The position numbers and the translations under genes are program-made. A DNA stretch of 62,500 nt from Acidimicrobiia bacterium (lineage in GTDB: Bacteria > Actinomycetota > Acidimicrobiia > Spongiisociales > ZC4RG35): positions 1 through 62,500 of the forward strand of contig DATGPZ010000202.1 of the NCBI GenBank assembly GCA_035304485.1. Direction: 5' to 3'. Positions 1 through 40,305 of the stretch are shown here, in pieces; within the stretch, counting starts at the first letter, position 1, and each line of letters begins with the position of its first letter. The notes beneath the pieces were generated by a model. It was not told the origin of the DNA. It made no database searches and worked only from the letters and a program-made list of their open reading frames with translations.

Positions 1-543
1 TCGGTGTGCGCTGCGGCGGAGATGTCGAAGGGATTCGACCCGCCGCCGATGCAGCGGCTGTTGGACCGGTCGATTCGACCGGGTCTCGGAGTCGACACCG
101 AGCGACTGGCCCCGGGTGACATCTTCGCTCCGATGCGAGCCGCGATCTCGCTCCAGCATGCCCGCTACTTCGACCTCAAGCTGGCGGGCAAGGGCGGATT
201 ACCGAACCTCCTCAACACCCGGGAGGTGATTCGCTATGCGACCACAGACGGTGCGCGGGCCGTCGGACTGGCGGAGGTGACGGGAACGCTCACGCCAGGC
301 AAGACCGCCGACGTGATCGTGCTTCGCGCCGACCGCCCCAACATCGCACCGGTCAACGACCCGATCGGGGCGGTGGTATGGGGGATGGACACCTCCAACA
401 TCGACTGGGTCTTCGTCGCCGGCGTGCCCCGTCTCCGATCGGGCCACCTGGACGCCGACATCGATCGTGTACGTCGACTCGCCACCGAGGCGAGTAGTCG
501 CGTGGCTACTTCGGCGGGATTCGGTTCCGGAGTGCGGGCATGA
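1..543 (+). CDS. Amidohydrolase family protein, C-terminal fragment (gene begins upstream of the window)
   Basis: The tail TGTLTPGKTADVIVLRADRPNIAPVNDPIGAVVWGMD is typical of the metal-dependent TRZ/ATZ-type amidohydrolase/deaminase C-terminus. It is paralogous to the C-terminus of 4697..7165. The TGA overlaps the ATG of the next gene. Confidence 0.75.
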   Translation, partial: SVCAAAEMSKGFDPPPMQRLLDRSIRPGLGVDTERLAPGDIFAPMRAAISLQHARYFDLKLAGKGGLPNLLNTREVIRYATTDGARAVGLAEVTGTLTPGKTADVIVLRADRPNIAPVNDPIGAVVWGMDTSNIDWVFVAGVPRLRSGHLDADIDRVRRLATEASSRVATSAGFGSGVRA

Positions 544-1571
544 CCGCCACAGTTCGCAGAGCCTCTCGATTCGTCACCTCGCTGGTGGTGGGCTCCCGCT
601 ACATGCCCGTCTACCTGGCGCTCCTCGTGCTGGTGATCGTCGCCTGGATCTGGAGCCCGTCGACTCTGAGCAGTGTCTCGTTGCGAGCCATCGCCCCCTA
701 TGGGGCCCTTCTCGGCATAACCGCCCTGGGGCAGATGCTGGTCGTGATGACCGGTGGAATCGACCTGAGCACACCGGGCACGGTCACCTTGGCTGCGGCG
801 ATCATGGTGGGCGTTGGCCAGCAATCCGACGAGCGCATCGGAGTCGCCATCCTGACCGCCGTCGGTGTGGCAGCCCTGATCGGACTCGTCAACGGGATCC
901 TCATCGGCGGTCTCCAGCTCAACGCCCTGATCGTGACTCTCGCCATGGGCCAGGTCGTGATCGGCATCGTCAACCGGTATGGCCGCAGCTTTCCCGTCCA
1001 GAGCCCGGTGCCCCCGGCCTGGTCCGACTGGACGTTCACCCGCATCCTCGGCATCAGCCCCGTCTTCTGGATCGGAGCCTTGCTGACTCTGGGGCTCATG
1101 CTGGCGTTCCGCTACACAGCCGTCGGGCGACGTTTCCAGGTCGTGGGGGCCAACCCCGTCGCCTCCCATGTGGTCGGTATCCGCGTGAACCTCAACCGCA
1201 TCCTCGTCTACGTGGCGGCCGCGGTTCTGTACGCGGCGGCGGGGGTGGCCTACGCGGGGCTCCTTCGGACTCCGGGGGTGGCCGCCGCCAATCAGTATCT
1301 TCTCGGTCCGATCGCGGCGGTGGTCATCGGAGGAGCGTCGCTGACCGGTGGGCTCGCCAGCTCTCTGTCCACCTTCGTCGCCGCGATCTTTCTCACCGGC
1401 CTCAATCAGATGCTGCTGACTCTCGGTATGCCGAAGGATCTCCAATTCGTGGTGTTCGGCCTCGTGATCGTCGGGGGAATGCTGGTTTCGGGGGACCGGA
1501 TCATCAAGGCGGTGGAGCGTGTGCTCCGTTTCCGACGAAGACCGAGTCGACCGAAAGAGCAAGCGACCTGA
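540..1571 (+). CDS. ABC transporter permease (ribose/monosaccharide-type, RbsC-like)
   Basis: 343 aa, hydrophobic throughout with multiple TM segments. It has a GGIDLS motif and a GGASLTGG block typical of this permease family, and an ATGA overlap with the upstream gene. Confidence 0.85.
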   Translation: MTATVRRASRFVTSLVVGSRYMPVYLALLVLVIVAWIWSPSTLSSVSLRAIAPYGALLGITALGQMLVVMTGGIDLSTPGTVTLAAAIMVGVGQQSDERIGVAILTAVGVAALIGLVNGILIGGLQLNALIVTLAMGQVVIGIVNRYGRSFPVQSPVPPAWSDWTFTRILGISPVFWIGALLTLGLMLAFRYTAVGRRFQVVGANPVASHVVGIRVNLNRILVYVAAAVLYAAAGVAYAGLLRTPGVAAANQYLLGPIAAVVIGGASLTGGLASSLSTFVAAIFLTGLNQMLLTLGMPKDLQFVVFGLVIVGGMLVSGDRIIKAVERVLRFRRRPSRPKEQAT

Positions 1572-1665
1572 CATTCCCTGACCGGTCGGAAAGGAGATCG
1601 AAGCAGAGTGGCGGAACTCGAATGAACAACGAACCCATGGCAGAGATGCCGGTATGGAGGAGGAC

Positions 1666-3072
1666 ATGAAATCACTGAAACTGATCTGCGTGCTGGCGGT
1701 GCTCGCCCTGGTGGCGGCGGCGTGTGGCACTGCAGAGGACACGACGACCACGTCGGAGGAGGCCCCGGCAACGACGGCCGCGGCAGCTCCGACGACTGAG
1801 GCTCCGGCGACCACAGCTGCGGGTGGGGGTGAGACGACGACGACCGCGGCGGAAAGCGGAGGAGGGGACAATCCGCTGGCGGAGTACGGCGAGGATCCTT
1901 CGGCGGCGGACATGGCGTTGGTCGACAAGGCCCTGGGGCCGGTGGACCCGTCGGACGAGGAATCCTGGAACATCATCCTGGCCTCGGTGGCACGAGCCCA
2001 TCAGGATCTGGACCAGGCGACCATCGACAAGGCTCTCGAATGCTGGCGCGAGCAGCGCTGCGAGACGGGAAGCGGCGGCGAGCTCGTCATGGGTTATGCC
2101 GACGGTGGCGGTAACGACGTCAACGTCTGGCGCTCCGTCAGCCACATGGAGGCGGTCCTGCAGGCACTGACGTATCCCGAGATCGGCACGATCATCTCGA
2201 CGGCCGCCAACTTCAACGAAGACCCGGCCGTCCACGAGAACGACATCCGGTTCCTGATCCAGAGCGGGGTCGACTTCATCGTCGGTTACCCGGACATGGG
2301 GGCGCTACTGGCCCCCGTCGTTCAGGAAGCCGAGGCCGCCGGCATCCCCTACATCGCCTTCTCGGCCGGCTACGTCGGACTGCCCGGCCAGGAAGGTGCG
2401 CTCACCCCCGGTGAGGACTACACGTCGGTGGTGGGCGAGGACCTCTGTGCATTGGGGCAGAGCTTCGCCGACACACTCAACACCGGTGTGGGCGAGGGCC
2501 AGGTGGCTCTCCTCGGTGGTACGCCTGGCAACGCCCTCTCCCTCGGATGGCAGCGCTGCACGATCGACGCCTTGGGCGAGAGCCTGGAGTTGGTCAACCC
2601 ACCAGCGGACGAGAACAGCACGACGGGCGACACCAACTGGTTCAACCCGATCATCCCGGACATCTTCCGTGGCTTGCTGACGGCCAATCCCGACATCCGG
2701 GGCTACGCCTACGAGTATGCCGACGGTGTCCTCTCCGGCTTGCAGGCCTACGACGAGTTGGGGATCCCGGTCGAGAACCTCACCTTGGCCCTACGCACCG
2801 ATGAGCAGAGCCTCTTCTGCGACTGGGTCGAGCGTGACGAGCCGACGTACGAGATCTACTACTCGGCAGGCGGCAACTTCCAGTCGCGAGTTGGTGTCAC
2901 GGCGGCGATGCTGACAGTGGCCGGATACGAGGTTCCGGGTGAGATCACCGTGCCTCACGTGATGCGCGAGGTGACGGCAGACGACTGCGATCCCGACCGT
3001 CCGAACCCGGTGGTGTCGGGCACGTCGCTCGTCCCGGGTGACATCCTGGCCATGATGTTCAGCGGCGGATGA
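1666..3072 (+). CDS. ABC transporter substrate-binding lipoprotein (type I periplasmic-binding fold)
   Basis: Signal peptide plus lipobox MKSLKLICVLAVLALVAAACG, followed by a Thr/Ala/Glu-rich linker and a soluble domain. It lies between the permease and ATPase genes. GGAGGAGG precedes the ATG at 1666; the alternative ATG is at 1654. Confidence 0.7.
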   Translation: MKSLKLICVLAVLALVAAACGTAEDTTTTSEEAPATTAAAAPTTEAPATTAAGGGETTTTAAESGGGDNPLAEYGEDPSAADMALVDKALGPVDPSDEESWNIILASVARAHQDLDQATIDKALECWREQRCETGSGGELVMGYADGGGNDVNVWRSVSHMEAVLQALTYPEIGTIISTAANFNEDPAVHENDIRFLIQSGVDFIVGYPDMGALLAPVVQEAEAAGIPYIAFSAGYVGLPGQEGALTPGEDYTSVVGEDLCALGQSFADTLNTGVGEGQVALLGGTPGNALSLGWQRCTIDALGESLELVNPPADENSTTGDTNWFNPIIPDIFRGLLTANPDIRGYAYEYADGVLSGLQAYDELGIPVENLTLALRTDEQSLFCDWVERDEPTYEIYYSAGGNFQSRVGVTAAMLTVAGYEVPGEITVPHVMREVTADDCDPDRPNPVVSGTSLVPGDILAMMFSGG

Positions 3073-4700
3073 CCCGACGCGGTCCTGTGGGAGAGTCGAC
3101 GACCACCGCACCGGTTCTCGAACTGACGGGCGTGTCCCGTCAGTTCGGGGCGGTGCGGGCGTTGACCGATGTCAGCTTCGAATGCCGCGCCGGCGAGATC
3201 CATGCCCTCGTCGGCGAGAACGGATCGGGGAAGTCGACTCTCCTCGGGATCGCCTCCGGTTTCGTGGAACCGGACCGAGGCACCATCCACATCGGAGGAC
3301 AGCGCCTGCGGACGGACTCGCCCGCACTGGCCCGCAAGCTCGGGCTGGCGATGGCCTACCAGGACGGTTCCTCGGTCGGGATGGAACCGGTCAAGAACAA
3401 CTTCTATATGGCGGCGCCTCCTGGAAAACGCCCTCCGTACTGGCAGAGGAAGAAGTGGGCCCGGCGTCTATTGGCGGAGTTCGATCTCGACGTCGAGTTG
3501 TTCCCCGACGTGCCGGCAGGAATGCTCACGATGGCCGAGCGGCAGCTGTTCGAGGTGGCCAAGGCCCTCGTGACCGAACCGAAGGTGCTGCTCTTGGACG
3601 AGCCGACGACGGCCCTCGGTCCCGACGAGGTGGAAGCCCTTCATCGCACCATCTTGGCCTGCAAGGCCAAGGGCGTGGGCGTGGTCTATGTCAGCCATCG
3701 GCTCCCCGAGGTCCTCGAGGTGGCCGATCGGGTCACGGTGCTGCGGGACGGGCAGAACCAGGGAACGTTCGACGCCCGCACCACCACCGAGGCCGAGTTG
3801 GTGGAGCACATCGTGGGCCGGCCCTTCGAGGCCGCCTTCCCTCCCGCCCGGCCTTCGTTCGGCGAGCCGGAAGTGGTCCTGACGGTAGAAGGGCTCCAAG
3901 GCCAGTCATTCGGGCCGGTTTCCTTCGAGCTCCAGCGAGGTGAGATCGTCGGTGTGGCCGGGGCGGAAGGCAACGGCCAGCCGCAGTTGTTCGACTGCCT
4001 CGCCGGCCGGACGCCTCCGCGAGCCGGCCGGGTGGTCTGTGCCGGACGCGAACTGACCCTGGTGTCGACCCACGAACCGGTGGCGGCGGGGATGATGCTG
4101 CTGCCGGGAGACCGAAAACGTGAGGCACTGATGGGCGTGCTGGGCGTGCGGGTGAACGCCACCGTGCAGTCCCTGCGAAAGTTCACCTGGCTGGTTTTCC
4201 TGCGCCGTCGGACCGAGCGCCGCGCGGTGGACGACCTCGTCGAACGCCTGAAGATCCGCACACCGTCCCTCGAACAACCCGTCGAGTTCCTCTCCGGCGG
4301 AAACCAGCAGAAGGTGTCGGTGGCGAGGTCCTTCTTGAAGGAGCCCGCCGTCATACTCGCCTACGAGCCGACCCAGGGCGTCGACGTCGGGTCGCGGTTC
4401 GACATCTACGAGGCTCTCCGTGATCGCAGCGACGCCGGGGCCGCCATCCTCGTCAAGTCGAGCGATCCCATCGAGCTGTCCGGCCTGTGTGATCGGGTGC
4501 TGGTCATGTCGCGGGGAACGATCGTGGAAGAGATCCCCCGTGACGAACTCGACGAGGTCCGGATCGTCGAAGCGATCGTTCGCGGCCCGGGCATGTCCAA
4601 AGCCGCCCGATCCCCGCTCGGTGCCGCGATGCCGAAGGCGCCGTCGGCATCCAATGGCGACGCCGCGGTGCCACCGCGGGAAGGGAGCCATTCGACGTGA
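3069..4700 (+). CDS. ABC transporter ATP-binding protein with two fused ATPase domains (RbsA/MglA-like)
   Basis: Walker A GENGSGKST, Walker B LLLDEPT, a second signature LSGGNQQK and a second Walker B-like ILAYEPT. ATGA overlap with the binding-protein gene. Confidence 0.9.
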   Translation: MTRRGPVGESTTTAPVLELTGVSRQFGAVRALTDVSFECRAGEIHALVGENGSGKSTLLGIASGFVEPDRGTIHIGGQRLRTDSPALARKLGLAMAYQDGSSVGMEPVKNNFYMAAPPGKRPPYWQRKKWARRLLAEFDLDVELFPDVPAGMLTMAERQLFEVAKALVTEPKVLLLDEPTTALGPDEVEALHRTILACKAKGVGVVYVSHRLPEVLEVADRVTVLRDGQNQGTFDARTTTEAELVEHIVGRPFEAAFPPARPSFGEPEVVLTVEGLQGQSFGPVSFELQRGEIVGVAGAEGNGQPQLFDCLAGRTPPRAGRVVCAGRELTLVSTHEPVAAGMMLLPGDRKREALMGVLGVRVNATVQSLRKFTWLVFLRRRTERRAVDDLVERLKIRTPSLEQPVEFLSGGNQQKVSVARSFLKEPAVILAYEPTQGVDVGSRFDIYEALRDRSDAGAAILVKSSDPIELSGLCDRVLVMSRGTIVEEIPRDELDEVRIVEAIVRGPGMSKAARSPLGAAMPKAPSASNGDAAVPPREGSHST

Positions 4701-7165
4701 TCGAGCAGATCACCACCACCCGCGTCGACCGGGTTCGCCAGCTCGTGCGGAAGGTGGCGCGGAACGCGCGTGACAAGGAGAAGTGGCGCAAGGTCGTCCG
4801 GTTCCGCCTCTGGATGCCCGTGGCGCTCCAGATTCTCCTGATCGTGTTGCTCCTCGCCTATACGGGGTCACGTTTCCCCGGTTTCATCAACCAGGTCAAC
4901 GTCTACAACATCCTGCTCCTGGCCATGCCACTGGCGGTGGCCGCCATCGCCCAGACGCACGCCATCCTGGTCGGCTACCTCGACCTGTCGGTCGGGGCGA
5001 TGATCAGCTTCGGCGTCGTCGTCGCCTCCTTCCTCATCGGGTCGGAAGCCGGTGTCGGGCAGATCCTCCTGGGCATCGGCGCCATCCTCGGATGCGGCGC
5101 GATCCTCGGCCTGGTGAATGCCGGGCTGATTCGCGGAGTCAAGATCCCCTCGATCGTCGCCACCCTGGCCACTCTCTCGATCCTCGACGGCATCTCCCTC
5201 AGTCTCCGTCCCACCGCCCAGGGTGCCATCAGCTCCGATCTCGTCTCCGTTCTCACTGCGACGGTGGGGCCCGTGCCGATCGCCTTCGTCGTCATCGTGA
5301 TCGGAGCCGGGGTGCTCGACCTGTGGTTGCACGCCTCCGGATCGGGGTTGGCGGTGCGGGCTGTGGGCTTCGACGAGCGCTCCGCCAAGCGAGGAGGAAT
5401 TCGCACCAACTGGGTCCGGGTTCGGGCCCTGCTCATCGCATCGGTGCTCGCCGCGGTCGCCGCCTTCTTCGTCATGGCGAGATCCCCGATCGGCAACGCC
5501 CAGATCGGCGCTCCCTTCGCCCTCAACAGCATCACGGCCGCAGTCCTCGGCGGGGCCTCCCTGGCCGGCGGCCGGGCGACCTTCGTCGGCAGCACGGTCG
5601 CCTCGGTGCTCCTCGCACTGATAATCACGGTGCTTCCCTTCCTGGGACTCACCCCGACCGACGGATCCATGATCATCGGTGTCTTGGTCCTGTTGGGGAT
5701 CGTCCTCTTCCAGGCGGGGGATTTGAAGGAGCTGGTCAAGCGCAACTTCCGCCGCGCCCGCCGCCTGGTCCTGGGAAGCCGCATCGGAGAGCAAGCCCAG
5801 CTCCCCGCGTTCTACCCGGAAGGCACCGACTTCAACGTCGTGCCCACCAGCCGTCTGCTGATCCGAGGTGGCACGGTCCTCACGCTCGACGGCGAGCTCG
5901 GGGACATGCCGGGCGCCGACCTCTTGATCGAAGGGGACCGTATCGCAGCCATCCGACCCGGGATCGAGGCTGACGACGCGGAGGTGATCGACGCCACGGG
6001 AATGATCGTGATGCCCGGTTTCGTCGACACCCACCGCCATATCTGGGAGGGAGTCCTGCGCAACATAGGCACCGACGTGCCGCTGGAAGGGCGGACCAGC
6101 TACATCACCTTCGTCCTCCACAAGCTGGCTCCGGCCTTCCGGCCCGAAGACGCCTACCTCGGCAATCTCGTGTCGGCATTGGGAGCAATCGACGCCGGTA
6201 TCACCACTCTCCTCGACTGGTCCCACATCCAGGGCTCGCCCGCCCATACCGACGCCGTGGTCCAGGCCCTGAACGACTCGGGCATTCGGGCCGTGTTCGC
6301 CTACGGGTTCCCGTGGTGGGGCAAATGGGAGGAGCGTCAGCCGAGCTGGTTCGTACGCTGTGCCACCGAGCACTTCTCGAGCAAAGACCAGCGCCTCACC
6401 TTGGCCCTGGCGGCTCCCGGTCCCGAGTTCACCGACTTCGAGGTGGCCCGTGACCACTGGAAGCTGGCCCGGGAGGCCGGTGCCCGCATAACGACCCACG
6501 TCGGCGTCGGCAGCTACGGGCAGGACGGCAAGGTCCAGGAGATGGGGGAGGCAGGGCTGCTCGGCCCGGACACGACCTACATCCACTGCACCACGCTCAA
6601 CGACACCGAGATCCAGATGATCGTCGACAGCGGTGGGACGGTATCGATCGCCACTCCCGTGGAGATGATGATGGGACATGGGATGCCCCCGGTCCAGAAG
6701 TTCCTCGACCGAGGCCTCAAACCGAGTCTCAGCGTCGACGTCGAGACCAATGTGCCCTCCGACATGTTCAACCAGATGCGTTCCGTCCTCGGGTTGCAAC
6801 GTTCGCTGGCTCGCTCGGCCGGCAAGGATCCGGTCGGGATGCGGGAGGTGCTCGAGTGGGCCACGGTCGAGGGAGCCCGGGCCAACGGCCTGCTCGACCG
6901 CACCGGCACCCTGACGCCAGGAAAGCAAGCCGACGTGATCCTGTTGCGCACCGATCGGATGAACGTGACGCCGTTGCATGATCCCGTGGGAGCCGTGGTC
7001 ACCAGCATGGACACCGGAAACGTGGACACGGTGATCGTGGCCGGTCACGTCCTGAAACGGCACGGGAAGCTGTTGCACGTCGACTGGTCGACGGTGAGGC
7101 GGATGTCGGAGGAGTCACGGGACCATGTCCTGGACAAGTCCGGGTTCAAACCACCTCGGATCTGA
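4697..7165 (+). CDS. Fusion protein: N-terminal ABC permease (RbsC-like) plus C-terminal amidohydrolase/deaminase domain
   Basis: A single 822-codon ORF. Residues ~40-345 are polytopic and resemble 540..1571 (GGASLAGG block). Residues ~390-822 carry the metal-binding HxH motif FVDTHRHIWEG and TGTLTPGKQADVILL, paralogous to 1..543. GTGA overlap with the ATPase gene. Confidence 0.8.
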   Translation: MIEQITTTRVDRVRQLVRKVARNARDKEKWRKVVRFRLWMPVALQILLIVLLLAYTGSRFPGFINQVNVYNILLLAMPLAVAAIAQTHAILVGYLDLSVGAMISFGVVVASFLIGSEAGVGQILLGIGAILGCGAILGLVNAGLIRGVKIPSIVATLATLSILDGISLSLRPTAQGAISSDLVSVLTATVGPVPIAFVVIVIGAGVLDLWLHASGSGLAVRAVGFDERSAKRGGIRTNWVRVRALLIASVLAAVAAFFVMARSPIGNAQIGAPFALNSITAAVLGGASLAGGRATFVGSTVASVLLALIITVLPFLGLTPTDGSMIIGVLVLLGIVLFQAGDLKELVKRNFRRARRLVLGSRIGEQAQLPAFYPEGTDFNVVPTSRLLIRGGTVLTLDGELGDMPGADLLIEGDRIAAIRPGIEADDAEVIDATGMIVMPGFVDTHRHIWEGVLRNIGTDVPLEGRTSYITFVLHKLAPAFRPEDAYLGNLVSALGAIDAGITTLLDWSHIQGSPAHTDAVVQALNDSGIRAVFAYGFPWWGKWEERQPSWFVRCATEHFSSKDQRLTLALAAPGPEFTDFEVARDHWKLAREAGARITTHVGVGSYGQDGKVQEMGEAGLLGPDTTYIHCTTLNDTEIQMIVDSGGTVSIATPVEMMMGHGMPPVQKFLDRGLKPSLSVDVETNVPSDMFNQMRSVLGLQRSLARSAGKDPVGMREVLEWATVEGARANGLLDRTGTLTPGKQADVILLRTDRMNVTPLHDPVGAVVTSMDTGNVDTVIVAGHVLKRHGKLLHVDWSTVRRMSEESRDHVLDKSGFKPPRI

Positions 7166-7244: not shown

Positions 7245-7409
7245 ATGGAGCAGGCTGTTCTGACGCTGGGAATGTGGGTGCACGTGGTGCTCAACGCATT
7301 GGTGAGCTACCGCCACACACCGAATCCGATCTGGGGCGAACTGCGGGTCGCCGGGGTGGTACTCGTCACCGCCGCCGTCTGGGTGATCCTTTCGATGGTG
7401 GTGAACTAG
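7245..7409 (+). CDS. Small hypothetical membrane protein (54 aa, two predicted TM helices), below the ORF-track length cut-off
   Basis: Hand translation gives MEQAVLTLGMWVHVVLNALVSYRHTPNPIWGELRVAGVVLVTAAVWVILSMVVN. Third codon positions are mostly G/C, GGAG lies ~10 nt upstream, and the ORF fills an otherwise empty 312-bp gap. Confidence 0.35.
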   Translation: MEQAVLTLGMWVHVVLNALVSYRHTPNPIWGELRVAGVVLVTAAVWVILSMVVN

Positions 7410-7477
7410 GCGAGCCGGCCGTGGATGCGGCCGTAGACTCTCCCGCATGGGCTGCAGGCCGGTTGCGGCGCTCTGAA

Positions 7478-8827
7478 ATGCAGGTGCCGCCCGAAACGCG
7501 ATACGTCAAATTGGACGCGGGATACGTCGGGTACCAGACGTTCGGCCATGGCCCACCCGCCTGTCTGTTCGTGACCAATTGGCTCCAGAACCTGGACGTC
7601 ATGTGGGCGGAGCCGACCATCGCTCGCTACTTCCGGCGTCTTTCCTCGTTCAGTCAGGTTGTCTGCTTCGACAAGCGAGGTTCGGGGATATCGGACCCCG
7701 TTCCCCTCGACTCCATACCCTCTCTCGAGACGTGGATGGACGACGCCGTCCGGGCGCTGGACGCCTCCGGGGTCGGAAGGGCAGCGGTGATCGGCGACAC
7801 CGAAGGTGGTCCCATGGCGATGATGCTCGCCGCCACCTTCCCGGAGAGGGTGACGCACCTGGTCCTGGTGAACACCTTCGCCCGCTGGCGCCGGGCCGAC
7901 GACTACCCGATCGGGATGCCGGACGGGACCTGGCACAAGCTGGTGGACCGATACGAGCAGCACTGGGGTCAGACCTCTGAGATCCTCTCCCTGACCGCCC
8001 CTTCGATGAGCAACGACGGACGGTTTCGCGATTGGTTTCTCCGATACCAACGTCTGTCGATGCCGCCGGCTGCGGCCACCGCCATGTACCGGTGGGTCAC
8101 GACCCTGGATGTGAGGCCGCTCCTGCCCCTGATCCGTGTCCCCACGTTGGTGATCCACCGAAAGACATCGCCCCACTACCGGCTCCCCTTCGGCCAGTAT
8201 CTCGCCGATCACATCCCGGGGGCGACGCTGGTGGAGATCCCGGGAGGTGACGGGTTCCCGTTCAACGCCGGAGACGTCACTCCGATCCTCGACGAGATCG
8301 AGCGCTTCCTGACCGGGAGCCGCAGCGAACCGGTCCTCGACCGGATGCTGGCCACGATCCTCTTCACCGACATCGTCGACTCGACCCGGATCGCAGCCGA
8401 CAGGGGAGACGCAGCATGGCTCGAGTTGCTCCGCCGGCACGACGAGATCGTGAGCGAGCACCTCGACCGCTATCGGGGACGGCAAGTGAACTACACGGGC
8501 GATGGGGTCGTCGCCGTGTTCGACGGTCCGGCCCGGGCCGTGGTCTGCGCGGCGCGCCTCCGAGAAGCGCTCGCCCAGATCGGGATCACGGTGCGCATCG
8601 GCCTCCATACGGGAGAATTCGAGCTGAAAGACGACCAGATCGCCGGCCTCGCCGTCCATCTGGCGGCCCGAATCATGGCGGCCGCCGGACCGGGCAGGAT
8701 CTTCACATCCGGGACGGTTCGGGATCTGGTGCTCGGCTCGGGGATCGAGTTCGGGGCCGCCGGCGAGCACGAACTCAAAGGCGTTCCGGGCCGCTGGCCC
8801 CTGTTCGAGCTGTTGTCGATCCCGTAG
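7478..8827 (+). CDS. Alpha/beta-hydrolase domain fused to a class III adenylate/guanylate cyclase domain
   Basis: The N-terminal half has an alpha/beta-hydrolase pattern (FDKRGSGISD, GDTEGG at the nucleophile-elbow position). The C-terminal half shows ILFTDIVDSTR...YTGDGVVAVF...RIGLHTGE...GLAVHLAARI, a typical class III cyclase. The start is placed at the ATG at 7478 (MQVPPETRYV) rather than the Arg/Gly-rich extension from 7274. Confidence 0.85.
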   Translation: MQVPPETRYVKLDAGYVGYQTFGHGPPACLFVTNWLQNLDVMWAEPTIARYFRRLSSFSQVVCFDKRGSGISDPVPLDSIPSLETWMDDAVRALDASGVGRAAVIGDTEGGPMAMMLAATFPERVTHLVLVNTFARWRRADDYPIGMPDGTWHKLVDRYEQHWGQTSEILSLTAPSMSNDGRFRDWFLRYQRLSMPPAAATAMYRWVTTLDVRPLLPLIRVPTLVIHRKTSPHYRLPFGQYLADHIPGATLVEIPGGDGFPFNAGDVTPILDEIERFLTGSRSEPVLDRMLATILFTDIVDSTRIAADRGDAAWLELLRRHDEIVSEHLDRYRGRQVNYTGDGVVAVFDGPARAVVCAARLREALAQIGITVRIGLHTGEFELKDDQIAGLAVHLAARIMAAAGPGRIFTSGTVRDLVLGSGIEFGAAGEHELKGVPGRWPLFELLSIP

Positions 8828-10479: not shown

Positions 10480-11166
10480 GTGTGTGGGAGAGTCGGGATG
10501 AGGGGGTGGGCGCGGCTTTTAGGACCGTGGTGGCGGTGGTCGATCTTCGCCGTGGTGGTGTTGCCCGTCACCCTGGTGGCGTTGCGGGACCCGGTTCCGG
10601 CACTCGAGGTGTCGATATCGGAGTGGTTCCGAGGGCTCTCGTCGCCGACCTTGGACCCGCTGATGATGATGGCCGACACCGTGGGAAGCGTTGGCGTCAT
10701 CGGGGTCGGTGTGACCCTGGTAGTGGCTCTGCTCCTGCTCCGCGGCTCGTTGCGGGCGGCCCTGGCGCTGCTAGCCGCCGGGATCTCCGGCTATCTGGTG
10801 AACCTCGCCCTCAAATGGGCGATCGACCGGCCGCGTCCCAACGGACCCCAAGCCTGGGGCGGATATCCGAGCGGCCACATGCTGCTCACCACGGTCCTGG
10901 TCGTGTCGATGGTCCTCTTGATGCGTGCCTCCCGGTGGAGGAGGCTGGCAGGTGGGGCTGCTGCCGTCGTGCTCGCCGTGATGGGCTTCAGTCGCCTCTA
11001 CCTGGGAGAGCACTATCCGATCGACGTGGTAGGAGGGTTGGGGATCGGGCTCTCGATCGTCTGGGCCGCGGACCTGGCCATCGGATTCGACCGAGCATCC
11101 GCCACCGACGCCGTCAGCCCTCGTCCCGAAGACGCCAGATCTCCTCGGCGCGTTGGAACTCCGTGA
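10480..11166 (+). CDS. PAP2 superfamily phosphatase (membrane)
   Basis: The three PAP2 motifs are present: KWAIDRPRP, PSGH and SRLYLGEHYPIDVVGG. Confidence 0.8.
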   Translation: MCGRVGMRGWARLLGPWWRWSIFAVVVLPVTLVALRDPVPALEVSISEWFRGLSSPTLDPLMMMADTVGSVGVIGVGVTLVVALLLLRGSLRAALALLAAGISGYLVNLALKWAIDRPRPNGPQAWGGYPSGHMLLTTVLVVSMVLLMRASRWRRLAGGAAAVVLAVMGFSRLYLGEHYPIDVVGGLGIGLSIVWAADLAIGFDRASATDAVSPRPEDARSPRRVGTP

Positions 11167-11836
11167 GGGCACGAGGCCCGTTGCGGAGGAGGAGTCGATA
11201 GAACGCCGGGCGGTCGATGTCGCGGTACTCGACCTGTTCAGTGACATAGGGGCCGACAGTCCCCGAGGTCGGCCGATGGCGCCGTCCTTTCTCGAAGCGA
11301 TCCAGGAAGGCAGCGATGTTGCGGGCGCTGGTCCAATCCGATTTGTAGACGATCGTGCCACCCCGGGCGATCACCCAACTCATGTTCGGGAGCAGCCCAT
11401 AGGCATGATGGGCCGTTCCGTCCAGGTCGTCGACCAGGATCGTGCGGCGGATCCCGACCTCGTCGCGGAGCCGCCGGGCGGCGGCGAGCTTGGAAGCGAA
11501 GTCAGTGTGAGGCCCGACGATCTCCCCGGGGTGCGCCTCTCGGGTGTAGATGAAGAACCAAGCCAGGTCTGACCGATCCTGAGCCAGATCACACAGCAGA
11601 GGACCCTCTGCCGAGCAATACGGTCAAGTGAACGAGCCGAATTCCAGGACCACCGTCCGTTCAGCCCAGACCTCGGAGAGGTCCACCTGCGCCTCGTCGG
11701 CGAGGCGAACCGCGGTGAACGCAGGAGCGGGTTGGCCGGCGTGGAGGTGGTTCGGAAAAGCGGAGAACTCCTCCAATTCCCTGCCCGACTCTACGTATTC
11801 GTCGAACCGCTCGTAGTTGTAGGAGTCGACCTGCAT
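11114..11836 (-). CDS. Deiodinase-like thioredoxin-fold oxidoreductase with an in-frame TGA (candidate selenocysteine) at 11624..11626
   Basis: ORFs 11624..11836 and 11114..11383 share one frame, and the segment between them is open when translated by hand. The junction reads VVLEFGSFT-[TGA]-PYC, which is the FGSxT-U-P deiodinase signature plus a UxxC motif. A SECIS-like hairpin follows directly. Confidence 0.7.
11588..11619 (-). promoter_or_regulatory. Candidate bacterial SECIS hairpin immediately 3' of the in-frame UGA
   Basis: mRNA: UGACCGUAUUGCUCGGCAGAGGGUCCUCUGCUGUGUGAU. Upper stem is GCAGAG/CUCUGC (positions 16-21/26-31 from the U of UGA) with apical loop GGUC (22-25). The lower stem extends to A8-U39 with one U.U mismatch. 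Confidence 0.6.
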
Positions 11837-11862: not shown

Positions 11863-12168
11863 TCAGGCGGGCGGTGCTTCCGGGTTCTGTGGGAGGAACA
11901 CGAACGAGAGACCCTGATCCCCGCTCTGGACGTCCATGATCGAATCGGACAGTGGCTCTGCCAGTATCGGGTCGAGATAGATCTCGGTGCCGGCGTGCTC
12001 GGCGCGGTGATCTGACGCATCGGCCGACTCCACGAACTCCAGCCGCAGGGCCAGATCTCCACTGGGCTGACGTTCCGCACTGATCCGTGTGTCGTGCCCT
12101 TCCGGGATTCCCTCGGCCTCACGGATCGACGCGAGAGCGGCGGCGGCGTTGTCTGACAATTTGAGCAA
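11863..12168 (-). CDS. HesB/IscA-like small protein (cysteine-less variant)
   Basis: 101 aa. The start MLKLSDNAAAALASI and the pattern LRLEFVES...EIYLDP...MDV resemble the IscA/HesB fold, but no Cys is present. It lies 26 nt upstream of the deiodinase-like gene on the same strand. Confidence 0.5.
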   Translation of the reverse strand: MLKLSDNAAAALASIREAEGIPEGHDTRISAERQPSGDLALRLEFVESADASDHRAEHAGTEIYLDPILAEPLSDSIMDVQSGDQGLSFVFLPQNPEAPPA

Positions 12169-33742: not shown

Positions 33743-36700
33743 GTGTCTGGAGACGCCTCGGTGAACGAGGATTTCCTCCTCGAGCAGGTCCTGGACCGCA
33801 TCGGCGACGGCTCTCCGGCCCTGGCATCTTTTGCCCGGGTCTATCTGCAGCGACTGCCCTACGACGCTGGGATGGCTCCGGAACCGGCCTACCGCGAGGT
33901 GATCTCGCTATTCGATTTCATCCGTTCCCGGGGCCCGCGGATCGACGTTCGTGTCTTCGATCCGGACGAGGCGACCCACGGATACTCCTCTCCAGGGACG
34001 GTGGTCGAGGTGCACGTCGACGACACTCCGTTCCTGGTCGACTCGATCACGGCCGAGCTGCTCGCCAACGAGATCGAGGTCGTGCGAGTGCTCCACCCGG
34101 TCATCGGTGTGGAACGGGACGCGACCGGAGAGCTGATAGCGGTCACCCGGCCGGGTGAATCGGAGTTTCGGGAATCGGTGCAGCACTACGTGCTCGACCG
34201 TCAGCTCGACGAGTCCGAACGCCGTCACATCGAGCGCCGGATTCGCACCGTGGTGGAAGACGTGCTGGCGGCAGTGGCCGATTTCGAGGAGATGGTGGCG
34301 GTCACCACCAAGATGGCCGAGGCGGCGGCGCGAGCTGCAGGCCACTACTCGGATGAAGAGATCCAGGAGGCGATCGCCTTCTTGGAGTGGCTGACCCAAG
34401 ACAACTTCGTCTTCCTCGGGTACCGAGAGTACCGAATCGTGCCGGTCGATGGTGAGCCCGGTCTGGTCGTCGAGCCCGACTCCGGGCTCGGCATTCTCTC
34501 CGATCCATCCACTTCTCGCGCCGCCGAACCCGTACCCCTCTCCAGCCTCCCCGAAGAAGTGCAGGCACGTTATCGGGAAGGGGATTTGTTGGTCTTGTCG
34601 AAGACCAACCGGCTCTCGACCGTCCACCATCGGGCTCGCATGGACTATGTCGGCGTCCGTCTGCTGTCCGACGACGGCCGCACGATTGGTGAGCTCCGAT
34701 TGTTGGGCCATCTCACTTCACGAGCCCACATGGAGAGTGTGACCCGGATCCCGATCTTGCGACGGAAGCTCGCCGCCGTGGCCGAGTCCGACGATCTGGT
34801 GGAGGGTTCACACGACCAGAAGGCAGTCGTGACTCTGGTGGAGACCTTCCCCAAAGACGAGTTGTTCGGGCTGCCGACCGAGGACCTGCGCAAGGTCGTC
34901 TTGGGCCTACTGGCGTTGCAAGAGAGGGCGCGGGTACGACTCTTCGTGCGGCGGGATCTGCTCGATCGAGGTGTCCGCATCCTGGTCGCCTTACCGCGGG
35001 AGCGCTTCACCGCTGAGTTGCGGCGCCGGCTACAGGACCTCTTCGTGGAGCGCTTCGGGGGGTCGGATGCCGACCACCACCTCAGCCTCGACCGCAGCGA
35101 CCTCGCCCGGCTGCATTTCACGGTGTGGGTGGAGGGGCCTGCCGCGCCCGAGGTCGACTTCGAGGCTCTCGAGGCAGAGGTGCTGGAGCTGACCCGCAGC
35201 TGGAACGAGCGCGTCGCCGACGAGATACTGGCTCGCGGAGGGGAACGGGCCCTGGTCGACAAGTGGGCCCGACGGCTCCCCGACTACTACAAGGCCTCGA
35301 CCGCCCCCGTGATAGCCGCTGGGGACATCTCGAACCTCGAACGCCTGGAGGCGTCGGGTCGAGCGGCGTTGGTGGCTCTGCAGAACGAACGCAGCGGCCC
35401 CGATGTCCTCACCCGCATCACCCTCTACTCCCGGGGCGGCAAACGTCCCCTCTCGGAGTTGGCTCCTGCGCTCGAGAACATGGGTCTGACCGTCGTGGAG
35501 GAGGTCCCAACCCGAGTCGCCGGCGAAGACGAGCTGTTCATGCACGATTTCGGGGTTCTAGATGCCGACGGCCACATGCTCGACGTAGCCGACTGCGGCG
35601 ACCGGGTGGCGGCGGCCATCGAGGCGGTTTGGGCGGGAGGAGCCGAAACCGACGCTTTGGACGCACTCGTCCTGTCGGCTGGGCTGGATCACCGACAAGT
35701 CGAGGTGATCCGCGCCTATCAGACGTACTGGCGGAGGGTCAGCCCTGTCTTCACGCTCAACTACGTGAAGGACGCATTGGCCAGCCATCCCCGCGTCACC
35801 GCCGGCCTCGCTCGGCTCTTCGCACTCCGCTTCGATCCTGATCAGGACGGGACCGAGTACGCCGATGAGCGAGACGCCCTTCTCGAGTTGCTGGATGAGG
35901 TGCCTTCCCTCGACGAGGATCGAATTCTGCGGGGGCTTCTGCGGCTGATCGATGCCACAGTGCGCACCAACGCATACCATCCGCACCGGCGGGCGCTGGC
36001 TCTGAAACTGCGGTCCGCCGATGTCCCCGATGTCCCCGATCCCCGGCCCCATGTGGAGACGTTCGTGATCTCTCCCGAGGTGGAAGGGATCCATCTCCGC
36101 GCCGGTCTCCGGGCGCGGGGAGGCATTCGCTGGTCGGAGCGCAAGGAGGACTACCGAACCGAGGTTCTGGGCCTGATGAAGGCGCAGGTCACGAAGAACG
36201 CCGTGATCGTCCCGACTGGCGCCAAGGGAGGCTTTGTCGTACGCCGCCCGGGCACCGCCACGCCGGAAGAAGTGCAGGACGCCTACGAGGACTACATCCG
36301 GGCCCTGTTGGACGTGACCGACGACCTCGTCGATGGCGAGGTGGTGCGCCCCGACTGGGTCCGTGCCCACGACGGTGACGATCCGTATCTCGTAGTGGCG
36401 GCCGACCGGGGCACGGCCCGCCTCTCGGACACCGCCAACCGTATCGCTGCCGAGTACGGGTTCTGGCTCGACGACGCATTCGCGTCCGGCGGTGCCACCG
36501 GCTACGACCACAAGGGCCTCGGTATCACGGCGCGGGGTGCGTGGAAATCACTCGAGCGCCACTTCTTCGAGCTGGGGATCGACCCGAACCGGGATTCGTT
36601 CACTGCTGTCGGAATCGGCGACATGTCGGGGGATGTGTTCGGCAATGGCATGCTGCAGTCGCGGTCGATTCGCCTGGTGGCCGCCTTCGACCACCGGCAC

Positions 36701-38497
36701 ATCTTCCTCGACCCCGATCCCGACCCCGAGCGGGCGTATGAGGAACGTCGCCGCCTGTTCGAGCTACCGGGATCGAGCTGGGATGACTACGACCGGAGCG
36801 CAATCTCGGCAGGTGGTGGGGTCTACCCGCGGAGTGCCAAGAAGATCGAACTGTCGGAAGAGGCTCGCAGGGTCCTCGATGTCGAGGCGGTCACGGTCAC
36901 GCCCGCGGAGCTGATCCAGATGGTTCTCCAGGCCCCGGTCGACCTCATCTGGAACGGAGGCATCGGAACCTATGTGAAGGCGAGCGACGAGACCCACGAG
37001 GAAGTGGGGGATCGGAGCAACGATGCCGTCCGTGTCGACGGCACCGACCTCCGGGCCCGGGTCGTCGTCGAAGGGGGAAATCTCGGCCTCACCCACAGGG
37101 CGCGGATCGAGTACGCCCGCAAAGGAGGCCTCGTCAACGCCGACTTCATCGACAATTCGGCCGGCGTGCATTGTTCCGACCGGGAGGTGAACCTGAAGAT
37201 CCTCCTTCGCCTCGCCGAGGAGCGAGGAGAGATCGACCGGCCAGGGAGGGACGAACTGCTGGCGGAATCGGCCGAAGCGGTCGTAGCGGCGATCCTGGCG
37301 GACAATCTCGCTCAGGCCCATCGGCTGGCGCTCGACGAAGCCGAATCTGCCCAGCGGATCGACGCTTACGAGCAGCTCATCGCCGACCTCGAGACACGGG
37401 GCTACCTCGACCGGGATGAGGACGGCCTTCCCGATTCCGGGGAGATGGACAGGAGAGCGCGTGAACGGATCGGCCTCACCCGCCCTGAACTGGCGGTGGT
37501 TCTGGCCCACTCGAAGCGGGCATTGGCCGACGACATCGCCGCTTCGCACCTCCCGGATTCCCCCGAGATGCTCGAAGATGTTCGGGCCTATTTCCCTCCC
37601 GGCGTGATCGAGCGATTCGGCCACCTGGTGGATGAGCATCCACTTCGCCGAGAACTCACGGCCACTGTCGCCGCAAATGCGTTGATCAACTCCCAAGGCC
37701 CGACCTTCGTCGCCCGGCTGGTGCGTCGCCAGGGTGTCACCGCAGCGGAAGTCGTCTCTGCCTACAGAACCGCACGCTATGTGGCGGGACCGGAGGTTCG
37801 ATCGGAGATGGAGAGCCAGTTCGGGAAGGTCGCACCGGAGGTGTGGCGGGAAGCCATCGTGTCGGACTCGAGGTTGGTGGGGACCTTGACTCGCTGGTTC
37901 CTGCGACGCGGATCGCTGGCATCATGCGAGATCGAGGCGATGGCCGACGGACTGCGGATCCTCGAAGAGCACGCACTGGAGTGGGGCTCGCTGCATCGCC
38001 GCGCCGAGAGGAGAGCTCGCTACGAGCGGCTCCGATCGGCCGGGCTCCCGAGTGAGCTCGCCCTGAGAACCGCCGTGTCCGACGAATTGGTCCACGCTCC
38101 CGACATCTACGAAGTGGCCGAAGCCGCCCACAGGTCGCTGACCGATGTGGCTTCGGTCTTCCATCGTTTCGGTAGATCCGCGGGGCTCGACGAGCTGGAG
38201 CGCCTGGCGGCGACATCGGCCCTGGCCGATCATTGGCAGCGGTGGGCACTCCAGACCCTCGAGGACGACCTCTTGAGAGCGAGGCGGGCCCTGGCCGAGG
38301 CGGCGCTGGCGCTGTCGGAATCCGAGTCGGCCGAGTCAGCGGTCGAGAGGTTTCTCGCCTCACGCGGCGACGAGCTGCGGCGAGTCCACGAGCTGATCGA
38401 CTCGCTCGCCGCCGTCTCCGTCGAAGACGTGAGCCCATTGGTCGTTGCGTTGCGCCAGGTCGAACGGCTGGTGAGTCCGACTGGAATCAGCCCTTGA
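33743..38497 (+). CDS. gdh: NAD-specific glutamate dehydrogenase, large (~180 kDa) class
   Basis: 1584 aa. The catalytic core [40 protein letters not shown] and GITARGAW...[15 protein letters not shown] are characteristic of the Bac_GDH family. Confidence 0.9.
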
Positions 38498-39905: not shown

Positions 39906-40305
39906 CGAAGTACACCCTCCCGTGCCATTGCCCTCCTTCTTCGCCCACGACCAGACCGTGGTAGGTGACCGCCTTGATGGAGGGCCCGGTCATTTCGACC
40001 AGACTCAGAGGGACCGCGCTGCCGTGCATCCGGATGTTCGACCCGTCGAGGGACTCCACATCGAAGCTGGTGAAGTGGAGCTCCCTCGTCTCGGCGATGA
40101 ACAGCCACTCGGAGAGTACGTCGACGATGAGGTCCTCGATCGTCTCCGATTCCACCACGACGGTCACCTCTTCGACCGGTTCTGCGGCCGTCTCGCCCAT
40201 CGACTCGAACATCGCCAGCGCCAGTTCGACGATCAGGCGGGGAAGATTCGGAGCCTCGGCTTCGACGCCGGTGTCGGCGGTGTGGGGGAGTTGTCGACGC
40301 GACAT
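39898..40305 (-). CDS. Archease (RtcB activator)
   Basis: 135 aa. The N-terminal [13 protein letters not shown] and C-terminal [10 protein letters not shown] motifs fit archease. It overlaps the rtcB start by 8 nt. Confidence 0.8.

What the first reader, a model, noticed from the sequence alone, without database searches (positions are those of the whole stretch)
11114..11836. In-frame TGA at the catalytic residue of a deiodinase-like thioredoxin-fold gene: candidate selenoprotein that ORF callers split in two
Minus-strand ORFs 11624..11836 and 11114..11383 are in the same frame. My hand translation of 11384..11623 is uninterrupted and protein-like: PYCSAEGPLLCDLAQDRSDLAWFFIYTREAHPGEIVGPHTDFASKLAAARRLRDEVGIRRTILVDDLDGTAHHAYGLLPN. 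The only break in the 241-codon frame is the TGA at 11624..11626. The junction reads VVLEFGSFT-[TGA]-PYC. This matches the FGSxT-U-P signature of iodothyronine deiodinases (vertebrate DIO1-3: FGS(C/A)TUP(P/S)F) and forms a U-x-x-C redox motif. The C-terminal AYG..P......I..G.IVYK block also fits that family. A stop exactly at the redox-active position, followed by 170 in-frame codons with coding composition, is the pattern of a Sec codon rather than a random nonsense mutation. The competing tracked ORF 11380..11592 is in another frame and is low-complexity Ser/Pro/Gly/Thr-rich.
Basis: partly seen in the sequence, partly recalled or inferred. Interest (0 to 1): 0.85.

Follow-up and report, generated by a model that had tools for sequence, protein, structure and literature searches.

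The report
Deiodinase-like selenoprotein gene with SECIS
The "stop" codon that splits this gene is almost certainly read as selenocysteine, making it one intact 240-residue redox enzyme of a bacterial deiodinase-like family known since 2005 that gene callers routinely truncate.

Summary
The minus-strand frame 11836..11114 is open except for one TGA at 11624-11626, inside VVLEFGSFT-TGA-PYC.

- **Family:** the read-through protein passes Pfam T4_deiodinase (42.7 bits, cut-off 27). The TGA aligns with the catalytic Sec of mouse Dio3 and Dio2.
- **Conservation:** all 80 orthologous loci fetched from different species genomes carry TGA at this codon. One natural Cys form has TGC.
- **Selection:** both halves are under similar purifying selection.
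- **SECIS:** a hairpin (11594-11613) follows the TGA. Its GGUC loop lies at nt 22-25 from the U of UGA, as in E. coli fdhF. Rare codons in the hairpin are frozen (GGT and CCT in 68/68 loci). A control motif varies freely and the Cys form lacks the hairpin.
- **Sec machinery in relatives:** tRNA-Sec, selB or selA lie next to the ortholog.

This window has no sel genes or tRNA-Sec, so Sec decoding in this genome is inferred, not shown.

The "deiodinase-like protein" family (PF00837, UxxC) was described in 2005, so this is a new member of a known kind. Its substrate is unknown. The useful by-products are a large Actinomycetota clade in which nearly every member examined is a Sec form, and systematic mis-annotation.

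The parts
11114..11836 (-). Full coding sequence of the deiodinase-like selenoprotein: 240 residues including Sec71, ATG at 11834-11836, true stop TGA at 11114-11116.
   Evidence: Single open frame apart from the Sec codon. PF00837 scores 42.7 bits against a cut-off of 27. tblastn matches to residues 1-238 in relatives. dN/dS is about 0.2-0.3 on both sides of the TGA.
11624..11626 (-). UGA read as selenocysteine (Sec71), the catalytic residue in FGSFT-U-PYC.
   Evidence: TGA at this codon in 80/80 orthologous loci and TGC in the Cys form L081. It aligns to the Sec-to-Cys position of Dio3 and Dio2.
11594..11613 (-). Bacterial SECIS hairpin CGGCAGAG-GGUC-CUCUGCUG. The conserved 6-bp core is 11596-11611 and the GGUC apical loop is 11602-11605 (nt 22-25 from the U of UGA). 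It overlaps codons S75-L81.
   Evidence: Local fold of -13.8 kcal/mol against -4.6 for the Cys form. The 71-nt fold has z = -2.24. In 68 clade-A loci the core stem pairs in 68/68 and the loop GGUC is 68/68, with compensatory CG>UA and AU>UA changes. Rare codons GGT and CCT are fixed 68/68. 90.7% of cells pair against 33-59% for slid controls, and 0/500 shuffles reach that. Coordinates were checked.
11615..11617 (-). Cys74 codon (TGC), the second residue of the U-x-x-C redox pair.
   Evidence: P-[YF]-C follows the TGA in every locus where the junction was read. Coordinates were checked.
11522..11548 (-). Y97-T-R-E100-A-H102-P-G-E motif, equivalent to the deiodinase Y-x-x-E-A-H-P proton-relay segment.
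   Evidence: Invariant or nearly invariant in alignments A1 and A3. It aligns to IYIEEAHPS of Dio3 and VYIDEAHPS of Dio2. The relay residues are named in PMC11592359.

Best explanation
One gene (11836..11114, minus strand) encodes a 240-residue cytosolic thioredoxin-fold selenoenzyme of the prokaryotic deiodinase-like family.

Inferred decoding step: during translation the UGA at 11624-11626 is not read as stop. The mRNA hairpin 18 nt downstream (11594-11613, GGUC loop) recruits SelB-GTP-Sec-tRNA(Sec), and selenocysteine is inserted as residue 71.

Inferred chemistry: the Sec71 selenolate attacks an electrophilic substrate. A selenenyl intermediate is resolved by Cys74 into an intramolecular Se-S bond, using the U-P-Y-C motif. 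A thiol reductant such as thioredoxin then regenerates the enzyme. The deiodinase-type proton relay (S68, T70, Y97, E100, H102, H110) assists.

Shown here: the frame, the family membership, conservation of the TGA, the RNA-level constraint on the hairpin, the Cys homolog, and linkage to Sec genes in relatives.

Not shown: actual Sec insertion in this organism, the redox cycle, and the substrate. My best guess for the substrate is a peroxide or another small oxidant, and second a halogenated aromatic compound. It is not thyroid hormone.
For: - **Frame and motif:**
- **Family:** PF00837 scores 42.7 bits against a cut-off of 27. By sequence, Dio3 4TR3 gives E = 7e-8 and Dio2 9H48 gives 4.5e-7, with the TGA on the catalytic residue. 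An AlphaFold model of the natural Cys homolog P0003 (pLDDT 78) has Dio3 and Dio2 as its top two PDB fold hits, followed by Prx-like and ResA/TlpA-like proteins.
- **Codon at the site:** TGA in 80/80 species-level loci spanning 41-71% identity. A natural TGC form exists (L081). The 'W' in database homolog P0006 is a TGA.
- **Truncated homologs:** 117 of the 120 best database homologs are 132-165-aa fragments that start after the TGA.
- **Selection:** dN is 0.24-0.46 against dS of 1.0 or more upstream, and 0.21-0.42 against dS 0.9-2.1 downstream.
- **SECIS:** frozen synonymous sites (GAG, GGT and CCT in 68/68; GCA in 57/65). Elsewhere in the same genes GGT is used 12% and CCT 5% of the time. The control motif YTREAHPGE shows 1.4-1.75 bits of third-base entropy. 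Clade B has a different covarying hairpin at the same place, and the Cys form has none.
- **Spacing:** 18 nt from the UGA to the loop, within the published 16-37 nt range (PMC10778597). The loop sequence and position match E. coli fdhF, whose 46-mer I verified in 5413 genomes.
- **Sec machinery next to orthologs:** tRNA-Sec RF01852 at 70.4 bits, about 50 nt upstream in L011. selB at 270 bits and selA at 414 bits sit beside the gene in Haloechinothrix aidingensis (L056), and selB at 255 bits in L033. selB lies within 3 kb in 6 loci.
- **Literature:** the family with its UxxC motif is already described.
Against: - No selA, selB, selD, tRNA-Sec or other recognisable selenoprotein gene lies in the 62.5-kb window. 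Sec decoding in this particular genome is therefore unproven.
- There is no experimental evidence of selenium incorporation for any member of this clade.
- The E. coli-type bulged U is not evident in the conserved 6-bp stem.
- The function is inferred from fold and motifs only. No conserved gene neighbourhood points to a substrate.
- The structure model is of a 53%-identical homolog, not of the window protein itself.
Confidence: 0.88

Rival explanations
1. The gene is a pseudogene inactivated by a nonsense mutation, or the TGA is a sequencing or assembly error.
For: An in-frame stop splits the frame. Gene callers annotate only fragments.
Against: The same TGA occurs in 80/80 independently assembled genomes of different species. 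Both halves are under equal purifying selection. All invariant family residues are intact in the window copy.
Confidence: 0.02
2. The UGA is read through or recoded, but not as selenocysteine. Possibilities are a reassigned genetic code (UGA = Trp or Gly) or hairpin-stimulated near-cognate read-through.
For: Two database homologs show W at the site. A hairpin downstream of a stop codon can stimulate read-through in general (background knowledge).
Against: About four fifths of ordinary ORFs in the window end in TGA. The 'W' checked at DNA level (P0006) is a TGA called under another code; the DNA for the other (P0001) was not available. The only sense-codon homolog has Cys, the usual partner of Sec. 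The position is the catalytic Sec of deiodinases. The hairpin has the SelB-type GGUC loop at the fdhF distance. tRNA-Sec, selA and selB sit beside orthologs.
Confidence: 0.03
3. The gene is a relic. This lineage has lost the Sec machinery and the protein is now made only as a truncated 70-residue peptide.
For: No sel genes or tRNA-Sec lie in the 62.5-kb window.
Against: The window copy keeps the consensus SECIS exactly, an intact downstream frame and every invariant residue. Decay would be expected after loss of the machinery. A 62.5-kb sample of a genome of several megabases would rarely contain the sel genes by chance (inference).
Confidence: 0.05
4. Functional rival: the enzyme is a true reductive dehalogenase acting on halogenated phenolic compounds, with chemistry like animal deiodinases, rather than a peroxidase or thiol oxidoreductase.
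For: The closest sequence and fold matches are Dio3 and Dio2. All six proton-relay residues named for deiodinases are conserved at motif level.
Against: The deiodinase-specific loop-D is 9 residues shorter than in Dio3. In the Dio3 alignment the position of Arg275, a proposed substrate-binding residue, is not Arg here. An extra Cys at +3 makes a thioredoxin-like UxxC centre that animal enzymes lack. The authors who described the family also expected a different, redox function.
Confidence: 0.2

Closest known systems
Prokaryotic 'deiodinase-like protein' selenoprotein family (Zhang, Fomenko & Gladyshev 2005, Sargasso Sea; listed with PF00837 and motif UxxC in the 2022 and 2026 reviews)
   Same: PF00837 homology, Sec in a UxxC motif, a bacterial in-ORF SECIS with a G-containing small apical loop, existence of Cys homologs, and no known substrate.
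   Different: The original members came from marine metagenomes (4 Sec sequences). This copy belongs to a large clade, mostly Actinomycetota (452 matches in species-level genomes). That clade has N-terminal helices outside the Dio3-aligned region, a conserved C-terminal three-helix extension and one highly fixed SECIS. I could not compare directly with the original sequences because they are not held here.
Vertebrate iodothyronine deiodinases Dio1-3 (structures 4TR3 for Dio3 and 9H48 for Dio2)
   Same: FGSxT-U active-site motif, the Y-x-x-E-A-H-P segment, the downstream His, thioredoxin/Prx-like fold, and top sequence and fold hits.
   Different: It has no N-terminal membrane anchor. Loop-D is about 9 residues shorter. 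It has U-P-Y-C instead of U-P-P-F. It carries an extra C-terminal helical extension of about 60 residues. The SECIS is the bacterial in-frame type, not a 3'-UTR element. Identity is 23-24%. Thyroid hormone is not an expected substrate.
E. coli fdhF SECIS (the SelB-binding hairpin of formate dehydrogenase H mRNA)
   Same: A hairpin immediately 3' of the UGA inside the ORF. The apical tetraloop GGUC occupies nt 22-25 counted from the U of UGA in both.
   Different: The stem sequence differs (GCAGAG/CUCUGC against UGCA/UGCA with a bulged U17). No bulged U is evident in the conserved stem here. SelB binding has not been tested.
TlpA/ResA/DsbE-type thiol-disulfide oxidoreductases and peroxiredoxins
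   Same: Thioredoxin fold with a redox pair at the N-terminus of helix 1 (CxxC or UxxC). Weak Pfam Redoxin and AhpC-TSA hits, and many fold hits.
   Different: They rank below the deiodinases in both sequence and fold. They lack the EAHP relay segment and normally use Cys.

Membership tests
Prokaryotic deiodinase-like selenoprotein family | Significant match to Pfam PF00837 (T4_deiodinase) | tested here: met
   42.7 bits against the gathering cut-off of 27, covering residues 29-166 and spanning the TGA.
Prokaryotic deiodinase-like selenoprotein family | In-frame UGA at the catalytic position, in a UxxC motif | tested here: met
   FGSFT-U-PYC. TGA in 80/80 loci. The UxxC motif is listed for the family.
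Prokaryotic deiodinase-like selenoprotein family | Cys-containing homologs at the same position | tested here: met
   L081/P0003 has TGC at the aligned codon.
Prokaryotic deiodinase-like selenoprotein family | Bacterial SECIS directly downstream of the UGA | tested here: met
Prokaryotic deiodinase-like selenoprotein family | Sec-decoding machinery (selA, selB, selC, selD) in the same genome | not testable with these tools
   None lies in the window, and only the window is available. Relatives do have it beside the ortholog: tRNA-Sec in L011, selB and selA in L056, and selB in L033.
Prokaryotic deiodinase-like selenoprotein family | Selenium actually incorporated into the protein | not testable with these tools
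   This needs 75Se labelling or mass spectrometry.
Vertebrate iodothyronine deiodinases (Dio1-3) | FGSxT-Sec active site plus the proton-relay residues (Ser, Thr, Tyr, Glu, His, His) | tested here: met
   S68, T70, U71, Y97, E100, H102 and H110 align with the Dio3 and Dio2 motifs. They are invariant or nearly so. The relay residues are named in PMC11592359.
Vertebrate iodothyronine deiodinases (Dio1-3) | Full-length deiodinase-specific insertion (loop-D / omega-loop) used for thyronine recognition | tested here: not met
   The HMMER alignment shows a 9-residue gap against Dio3 between EAHP and the downstream His. There are 8 residues from H102 to H110, against 17 in Dio3.
Vertebrate iodothyronine deiodinases (Dio1-3) | N-terminal transmembrane anchor | tested here: not met
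   The N-terminus MQVDSYNYERFDEYVESGRELEEF is acidic and polar. That deiodinases are membrane enzymes is stated in the PMC11592359 abstract.
Vertebrate iodothyronine deiodinases (Dio1-3) | Eukaryotic-type SECIS in the 3' UTR | tested here: not met
   The conserved element is an in-ORF hairpin of bacterial type.
Vertebrate iodothyronine deiodinases (Dio1-3) | Reductive deiodination of iodothyronines | not testable with these tools
   This needs an enzyme assay.
Bacterial SECIS element | Hairpin with 16-37 nt between the UGA and the apical loop | tested here: met
   The spacing is 18 nt. The criterion comes from PMC10778597.
Bacterial SECIS element | Small apical loop containing a conserved G | tested here: met
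   The GGUC loop is invariant in 68/68 clade-A loci. The criterion comes from PMC1088965.
Bacterial SECIS element | Structure maintained by selection (covariation, frozen synonymous sites) | tested here: met
   The Cys form lacks the hairpin.
Bacterial SECIS element | Binding by SelB | not testable with these tools
   This needs a binding or reporter assay.
NCBIfam NF038285 'deiodinase_rel' (deiodinase family protein) | Score above the curated cut-off of 250 bits | tested here: not met
   It scores 59.6 bits, matching only profile positions 178-324 of 347. It is a related but separate family.

The most novel reading that the evidence does not exclude
This clade, mostly Actinomycetota, is made up almost entirely of Sec forms. 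It keeps the whole deiodinase proton relay but has a shortened loop-D, a UxxC centre and a private C-terminal helical extension. The most novel reading is that it is a genuine bacterial reductive dehalogenase for natural or pollutant halophenols. That would make it a free-living prokaryotic counterpart of animal deiodinases and the first with an assigned substrate.
Probability: 0.15. Interest if true: 0.7.

Novelty: new member of a known kind. Interest (0 to 1): 0.33.

Why it matters
- **Annotation:** the gene is a correct catch of a selenoprotein that standard pipelines break. In the protein database 117 of the 120 closest homologs are stored as C-terminal fragments labelled 'hypothetical protein', and NCBI's nearest model does not reach its cut-off. 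Hundreds of genomes, mostly Actinomycetota, therefore under-report their selenoproteomes.
- **SECIS:** the clade offers an unusually clean natural SECIS dataset. It has one fixed GGUC hairpin with compensatory changes, a second hairpin type in a sister clade, and a Cys form without a hairpin.
- **Route to function:** a cultured carrier, Haloechinothrix aidingensis, has selA and selB next to the gene. That gives a practical way to the still-unknown function of bacterial deiodinase-like proteins.
- **Limit:** none of this changes the current picture of Sec biology.

Tried and rejected
- **Sec machinery in the window:** ARAGORN and Rfam found no tRNA-Sec. Pfam scans of about 40 ORFs and motif scans found no selA, selB or selD.
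- **A second selenoprotein in the window:** the ORF after the NuoF-like gene is a multicopper/cupredoxin protein, not formate dehydrogenase. A scan of all in-frame TGAs with coding signal on both sides left only this gene as a redox-motif candidate. The otsA/otsB junction at 29037 is two ordinary genes in one frame.
- **Conserved neighbourhood as a functional clue:** none of the window's neighbours is conserved beside orthologs. De novo clustering was noisy and gave only lineage-specific neighbours.
- **DNA for P0001:** it was not available. The 'W' question was settled with P0006/L082.
- **Extended lower stem:** the stem predicted for the window RNA that includes the UGA is not conserved in relatives, so I did not count it as part of the element.
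- **Upstream ORF:** the 101-aa ORF (11863-12168) is only a sub-threshold HesB/IscA-like match and has no Cys or Sec.
Full report
**1. The observation**

On the minus strand the frame from ATG 11836 to TGA 11114 has 241 codons and one internal stop, TGA at 11624-11626. The local sequence reads ...ERTVVLEFGSFT-TGA-PYCSAEGPLLC....

An in-frame TAG lies a few codons upstream of the ATG, so no longer N-terminus is possible. After the TGA the first possible restart codon is 80 codons downstream, at 11383. A restart would therefore skip the most conserved part of the protein.

Codon-position GC is coding-like and equal in all three segments: 0.67/0.39/0.81, 0.72/0.47/0.78 and 0.64/0.51/0.77. The competing ORF 11380..11592 gives 0.45/0.80/0.72, the pattern of an off-frame shadow.

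The window is 66% G+C. About four fifths of its ordinary ORFs end in TGA, so TGA is a normal stop in this genome.

**2. What the protein is**

With Cys substituted at the TGA, the protein passes Pfam PF00837 T4_deiodinase (42.7 bits, cut-off 27) across residues 29-166, so the match spans the TGA. Redoxin and AhpC-TSA match weakly.

NCBIfam's 'deiodinase_rel' model scores only 59.6 bits against its cut-off of 250. NCBI's pipeline therefore has no model that would name this protein.

Against solved structures the only significant sequence hits are mouse Dio3 (4TR3, E = 7e-8) and Dio2 (9H48, E = 4.5e-7). The TGA falls on the catalytic Sec, which is mutated to Cys in those constructs: LEFGSFT[U]PYC against LNFGSCT[C]PPF.

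An AlphaFold model of the natural Cys-form homolog P0003 (53% identical; pLDDT 78, pTM 0.74) has Dio3 and Dio2 as its two best PDB fold matches. Prx-like and ResA/TlpA-like thioredoxin-fold proteins follow.

The residues proposed to form the deiodinase proton relay are Dio2 Ser127, Thr129, Tyr157, Glu160, His162 and His182 (PMC11592359). At motif level they correspond to S68, T70, Y97, E100, H102 and H110 here. All are invariant or nearly so in the family.

The protein differs from animal deiodinases in four ways:
- It has an acidic N-terminus without a membrane anchor.
- Its loop-D is 9 residues shorter.
- It has Cys at +3, giving U-P-Y-C where animals have U-P-P-F.
- It has a conserved C-terminal extension of about 60 residues, modelled as three helices, that lies outside the Dio3-aligned core.

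**3. Is the TGA a Sec codon? Comparative evidence**

The protein search found 593 homologs. Of the best 120, 117 are 132-165-aa fragments that begin after the TGA, which is the typical fate of a selenoprotein in gene calling. Several are named 'hypothetical protein' by NCBI.

Three homologs are full length. One has Cys, and its DNA (L081) has TGC. Two have 'W'. For P0006 the DNA (L082) shows TGA, so the W comes from a gene call under another genetic code.

A scan of one genome per GTDB species found 452 relatives. I kept the best 80 loci: Acidimicrobiia, Nitriliruptoria, Euzebyales, Gaiellales/Thermoleophilia, Streptosporangiales, the cultured Haloechinothrix aidingensis, and also Ktedonobacterales and others. 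Identity to the window protein ranges from 41% to 71%.

All 80 loci have TGA at exactly this codon (76, the other 4).

Nei-Gojobori estimates between the window and ten relatives show equal purifying selection on the two sides. Upstream, dN is 0.24-0.46 with dS of 1.0 or more. Downstream, dN is 0.21-0.42 with dS 0.9-2.1.

These results exclude a nonsense pseudogene, an assembly error and a split gene.

**4. The SECIS element**

Directly after the UGA the RNA folds into CGGCAGAG-GGUC-CUCUGCUG (11613..11594). The local fold is -13.8 kcal/mol. The 71-nt context folds at -28.9 kcal/mol with z = -2.24.

The hairpin is written in the codons for S-A-E-G-P-L-L, which allows a clean test at synonymous sites:

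| Site | Observation in the 68 clade-A loci |
|---|---|
| Glu codon in hairpin | GAG in 68/68 |
| Gly codon in hairpin | GGT in 68/68 (12% use elsewhere in the same genes) |
| Pro codon in hairpin | CCT in 68/68 (5% use elsewhere) |
| Ala codon in hairpin | GCA in 57/65 (6.5% use elsewhere) |
| Control motif YTREAHPGE (invariant amino acids) | third-base entropy 1.4-1.75 bits at four-fold sites |

The six core base pairs are standard pairs in 68/68 loci and the loop is GGUC in 68/68. There are double compensatory changes: C-G to U-A in L009 and L035, and A-U to U-A in L031. The L031 change even costs a Leu-to-Gln substitution.

The tool's own count on all 77 sequences gives 90.7% paired cells against 33-59% when partners are slid. 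None of 500 shuffles reaches the observed pairing or covariation.

Clade B (eleven loci, mostly Ktedonobacterales and relatives) has a different hairpin at the same place, (G)AUGG-loop-CCAU(C) or CUGG-loop-CCAG, again with covariation. The Cys form L081 uses GCC-GAG-AGC-CCA and has no hairpin, folding at -4.6 kcal/mol.

The distance from the UGA to the loop is 18 nt, inside the published 16-37 nt range (PMC10778597). The loop is small and contains G, as required (PMC1088965).

I recalled the E. coli fdhF SECIS from memory and verified the 46-mer at 99-100% identity in 5413 E. coli genomes, under the annotated selenocysteine-containing fdhF. Its GGUC loop lies at nt 22-25 from the U of UGA, exactly as here. 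The E. coli bulged U17 (from memory) has no obvious counterpart in the conserved stem.

**5. Sec machinery**

The window has no tRNA at all, no Rfam hit, and no selA, selB, selD or formate dehydrogenase among about 40 ORFs scanned. No second read-through candidate with a redox motif turned up. The source could be traced only to short metagenome contigs. Sec competence of this very genome is therefore inferred, not shown.

In relatives the linkage is direct:
- In L011 (Egibacteraceae) a tRNA-Sec with anticodon TCA lies about 50 nt upstream of the ortholog. It scores 70.4 bits on RF01852 against a cut-off of 47.
- In L056 (Haloechinothrix aidingensis YIM 98757) selB (TIGR00475, 270 bits against 242) lies about 50 nt beyond the ortholog's end, on the opposite strand. 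selA (TIGR00474, 414 bits against 268) lies next to it.
- selB lies within 3 kb in six loci.
- In at least 12 Nitriliruptoria/Euzebyales loci the gene between the ortholog and selB is a GrdB/PrdB-family homolog with its own conserved in-frame TGA, FLVAT-U-PVC.

**6. Mechanism**

The best-supported reading runs as follows. SelB with Sec-tRNA(Sec) is recruited by the hairpin and inserts Sec71. The selenolate, at the N-terminus of helix 1 of a thioredoxin fold, attacks an electrophilic substrate. Cys74 resolves the selenenyl intermediate into a Se-S bond, and a thiol reductant recycles the enzyme. The deiodinase/Prx-type relay supplies protons.

The decoding step rests on strong comparative evidence. 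The redox cycle and the substrate are inferences from motif and fold.

The short loop-D, the non-conserved Arg275 position and the UxxC centre argue against thyronine-like substrates. The authors who described the family reached the same view.

No conserved neighbourhood narrows the substrate.

**7. Comparison with what is known, and novelty**

'Deiodinase-like protein' was reported as a new bacterial selenoprotein family, with Cys homologs and bacterial SECIS elements, from the Sargasso Sea metagenome in 2005 (PMC1088965). The 2022 and 2026 reviews list it with PF00837 and the motif UxxC.

The window gene meets every sequence-level criterion of that family, so it is a new member of a known kind. 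It is not a member of the animal Dio1-3 group: loop-D, the membrane anchor and the SECIS type were tested and not met.

What this analysis adds is modest:
- The size and taxonomic spread of this clade, in which nearly every member examined is a Sec form.
- Its near-invariant fdhF-like SECIS.
- The co-location with selA, selB, selC and a PrdB-like selenoprotein in relatives.
- The scale of the mis-annotation.

**8. Verdict**

Confidence that this is a functional Sec-encoding gene is about 0.88. Interest is about 0.33: it is a correct and neat find, but of a kind specialists already know.

Noticed in passing
L007, L008, L013-L017, L020, L022, L027, L028, L033 (e.g. L022 about 3760-4700, + strand); not in the window: Directly downstream of the deiodinase-like gene in Nitriliruptoria/Euzebyales relatives lies a GrdB/PrdB-family homolog. 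It scores 38.8 bits on PF07355 (cut-off 22) and 83 bits on TIGR04483 PrdB (below cut-off). It has its own conserved in-frame TGA (FLVAT-U-PVCHGSVGLVARA) and about 90 conserved codons after it. In several loci selB follows on the opposite strand, forming a small selenoprotein island.
   Followed up: partly
L056 3755-5533 (-) and 5497-6687 (-); L011 2859-2950 (-): In the cultured Haloechinothrix aidingensis YIM 98757, selB and selA lie immediately beside the ortholog. In an Egibacteraceae MAG a tRNA-Sec gene lies about 50 nt upstream of it. This offers a cultured organism for experiments.
   Followed up: yes
window 11863-12168 (-): A 101-aa ORF ends 26 nt upstream of the selenoprotein start on the same strand. 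It is weakly HesB/IscA-like (PF01521, E = 0.025, below cut-off) and has no Cys. It is not conserved next to orthologs.
   Followed up: partly
window 4697-7165 (+): A single 822-aa ORF combines a branched-chain amino-acid ABC permease domain (BPD_transp_2, residues 69-332) with an amidohydrolase domain (437-785). This is an unusual fusion inside an ABC-transporter cluster at 540-7165.
   Followed up: no
window 7274-8827 (+): A 517-aa protein combines an alpha/beta-hydrolase domain with a C-terminal adenylate/guanylate cyclase catalytic domain.
   Followed up: no
window 38487-40814 (-): An RtcB RNA ligase (539 bits), an archease and a universal stress protein lie in a row, a likely RNA-repair module.
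   Followed up: no
window 33743-38497 (+) and 56863-58548 (+): One ORF is a 1584-aa large NAD-specific glutamate dehydrogenase. The other is a 561-aa multicopper-oxidase-like protein with a C-terminal plastocyanin/azurin-type cupredoxin domain, located next to a NuoF-like gene at 55172-56530.
   Followed up: no
protein database hits P0001 and P0006 (L082): Some JGI gene calls translate the Sec TGA as Trp, apparently because a genetic code with TGA = Trp was applied to short contigs. This produces full-length but wrong 'FGSFTWPYC' proteins.
   Followed up: yes
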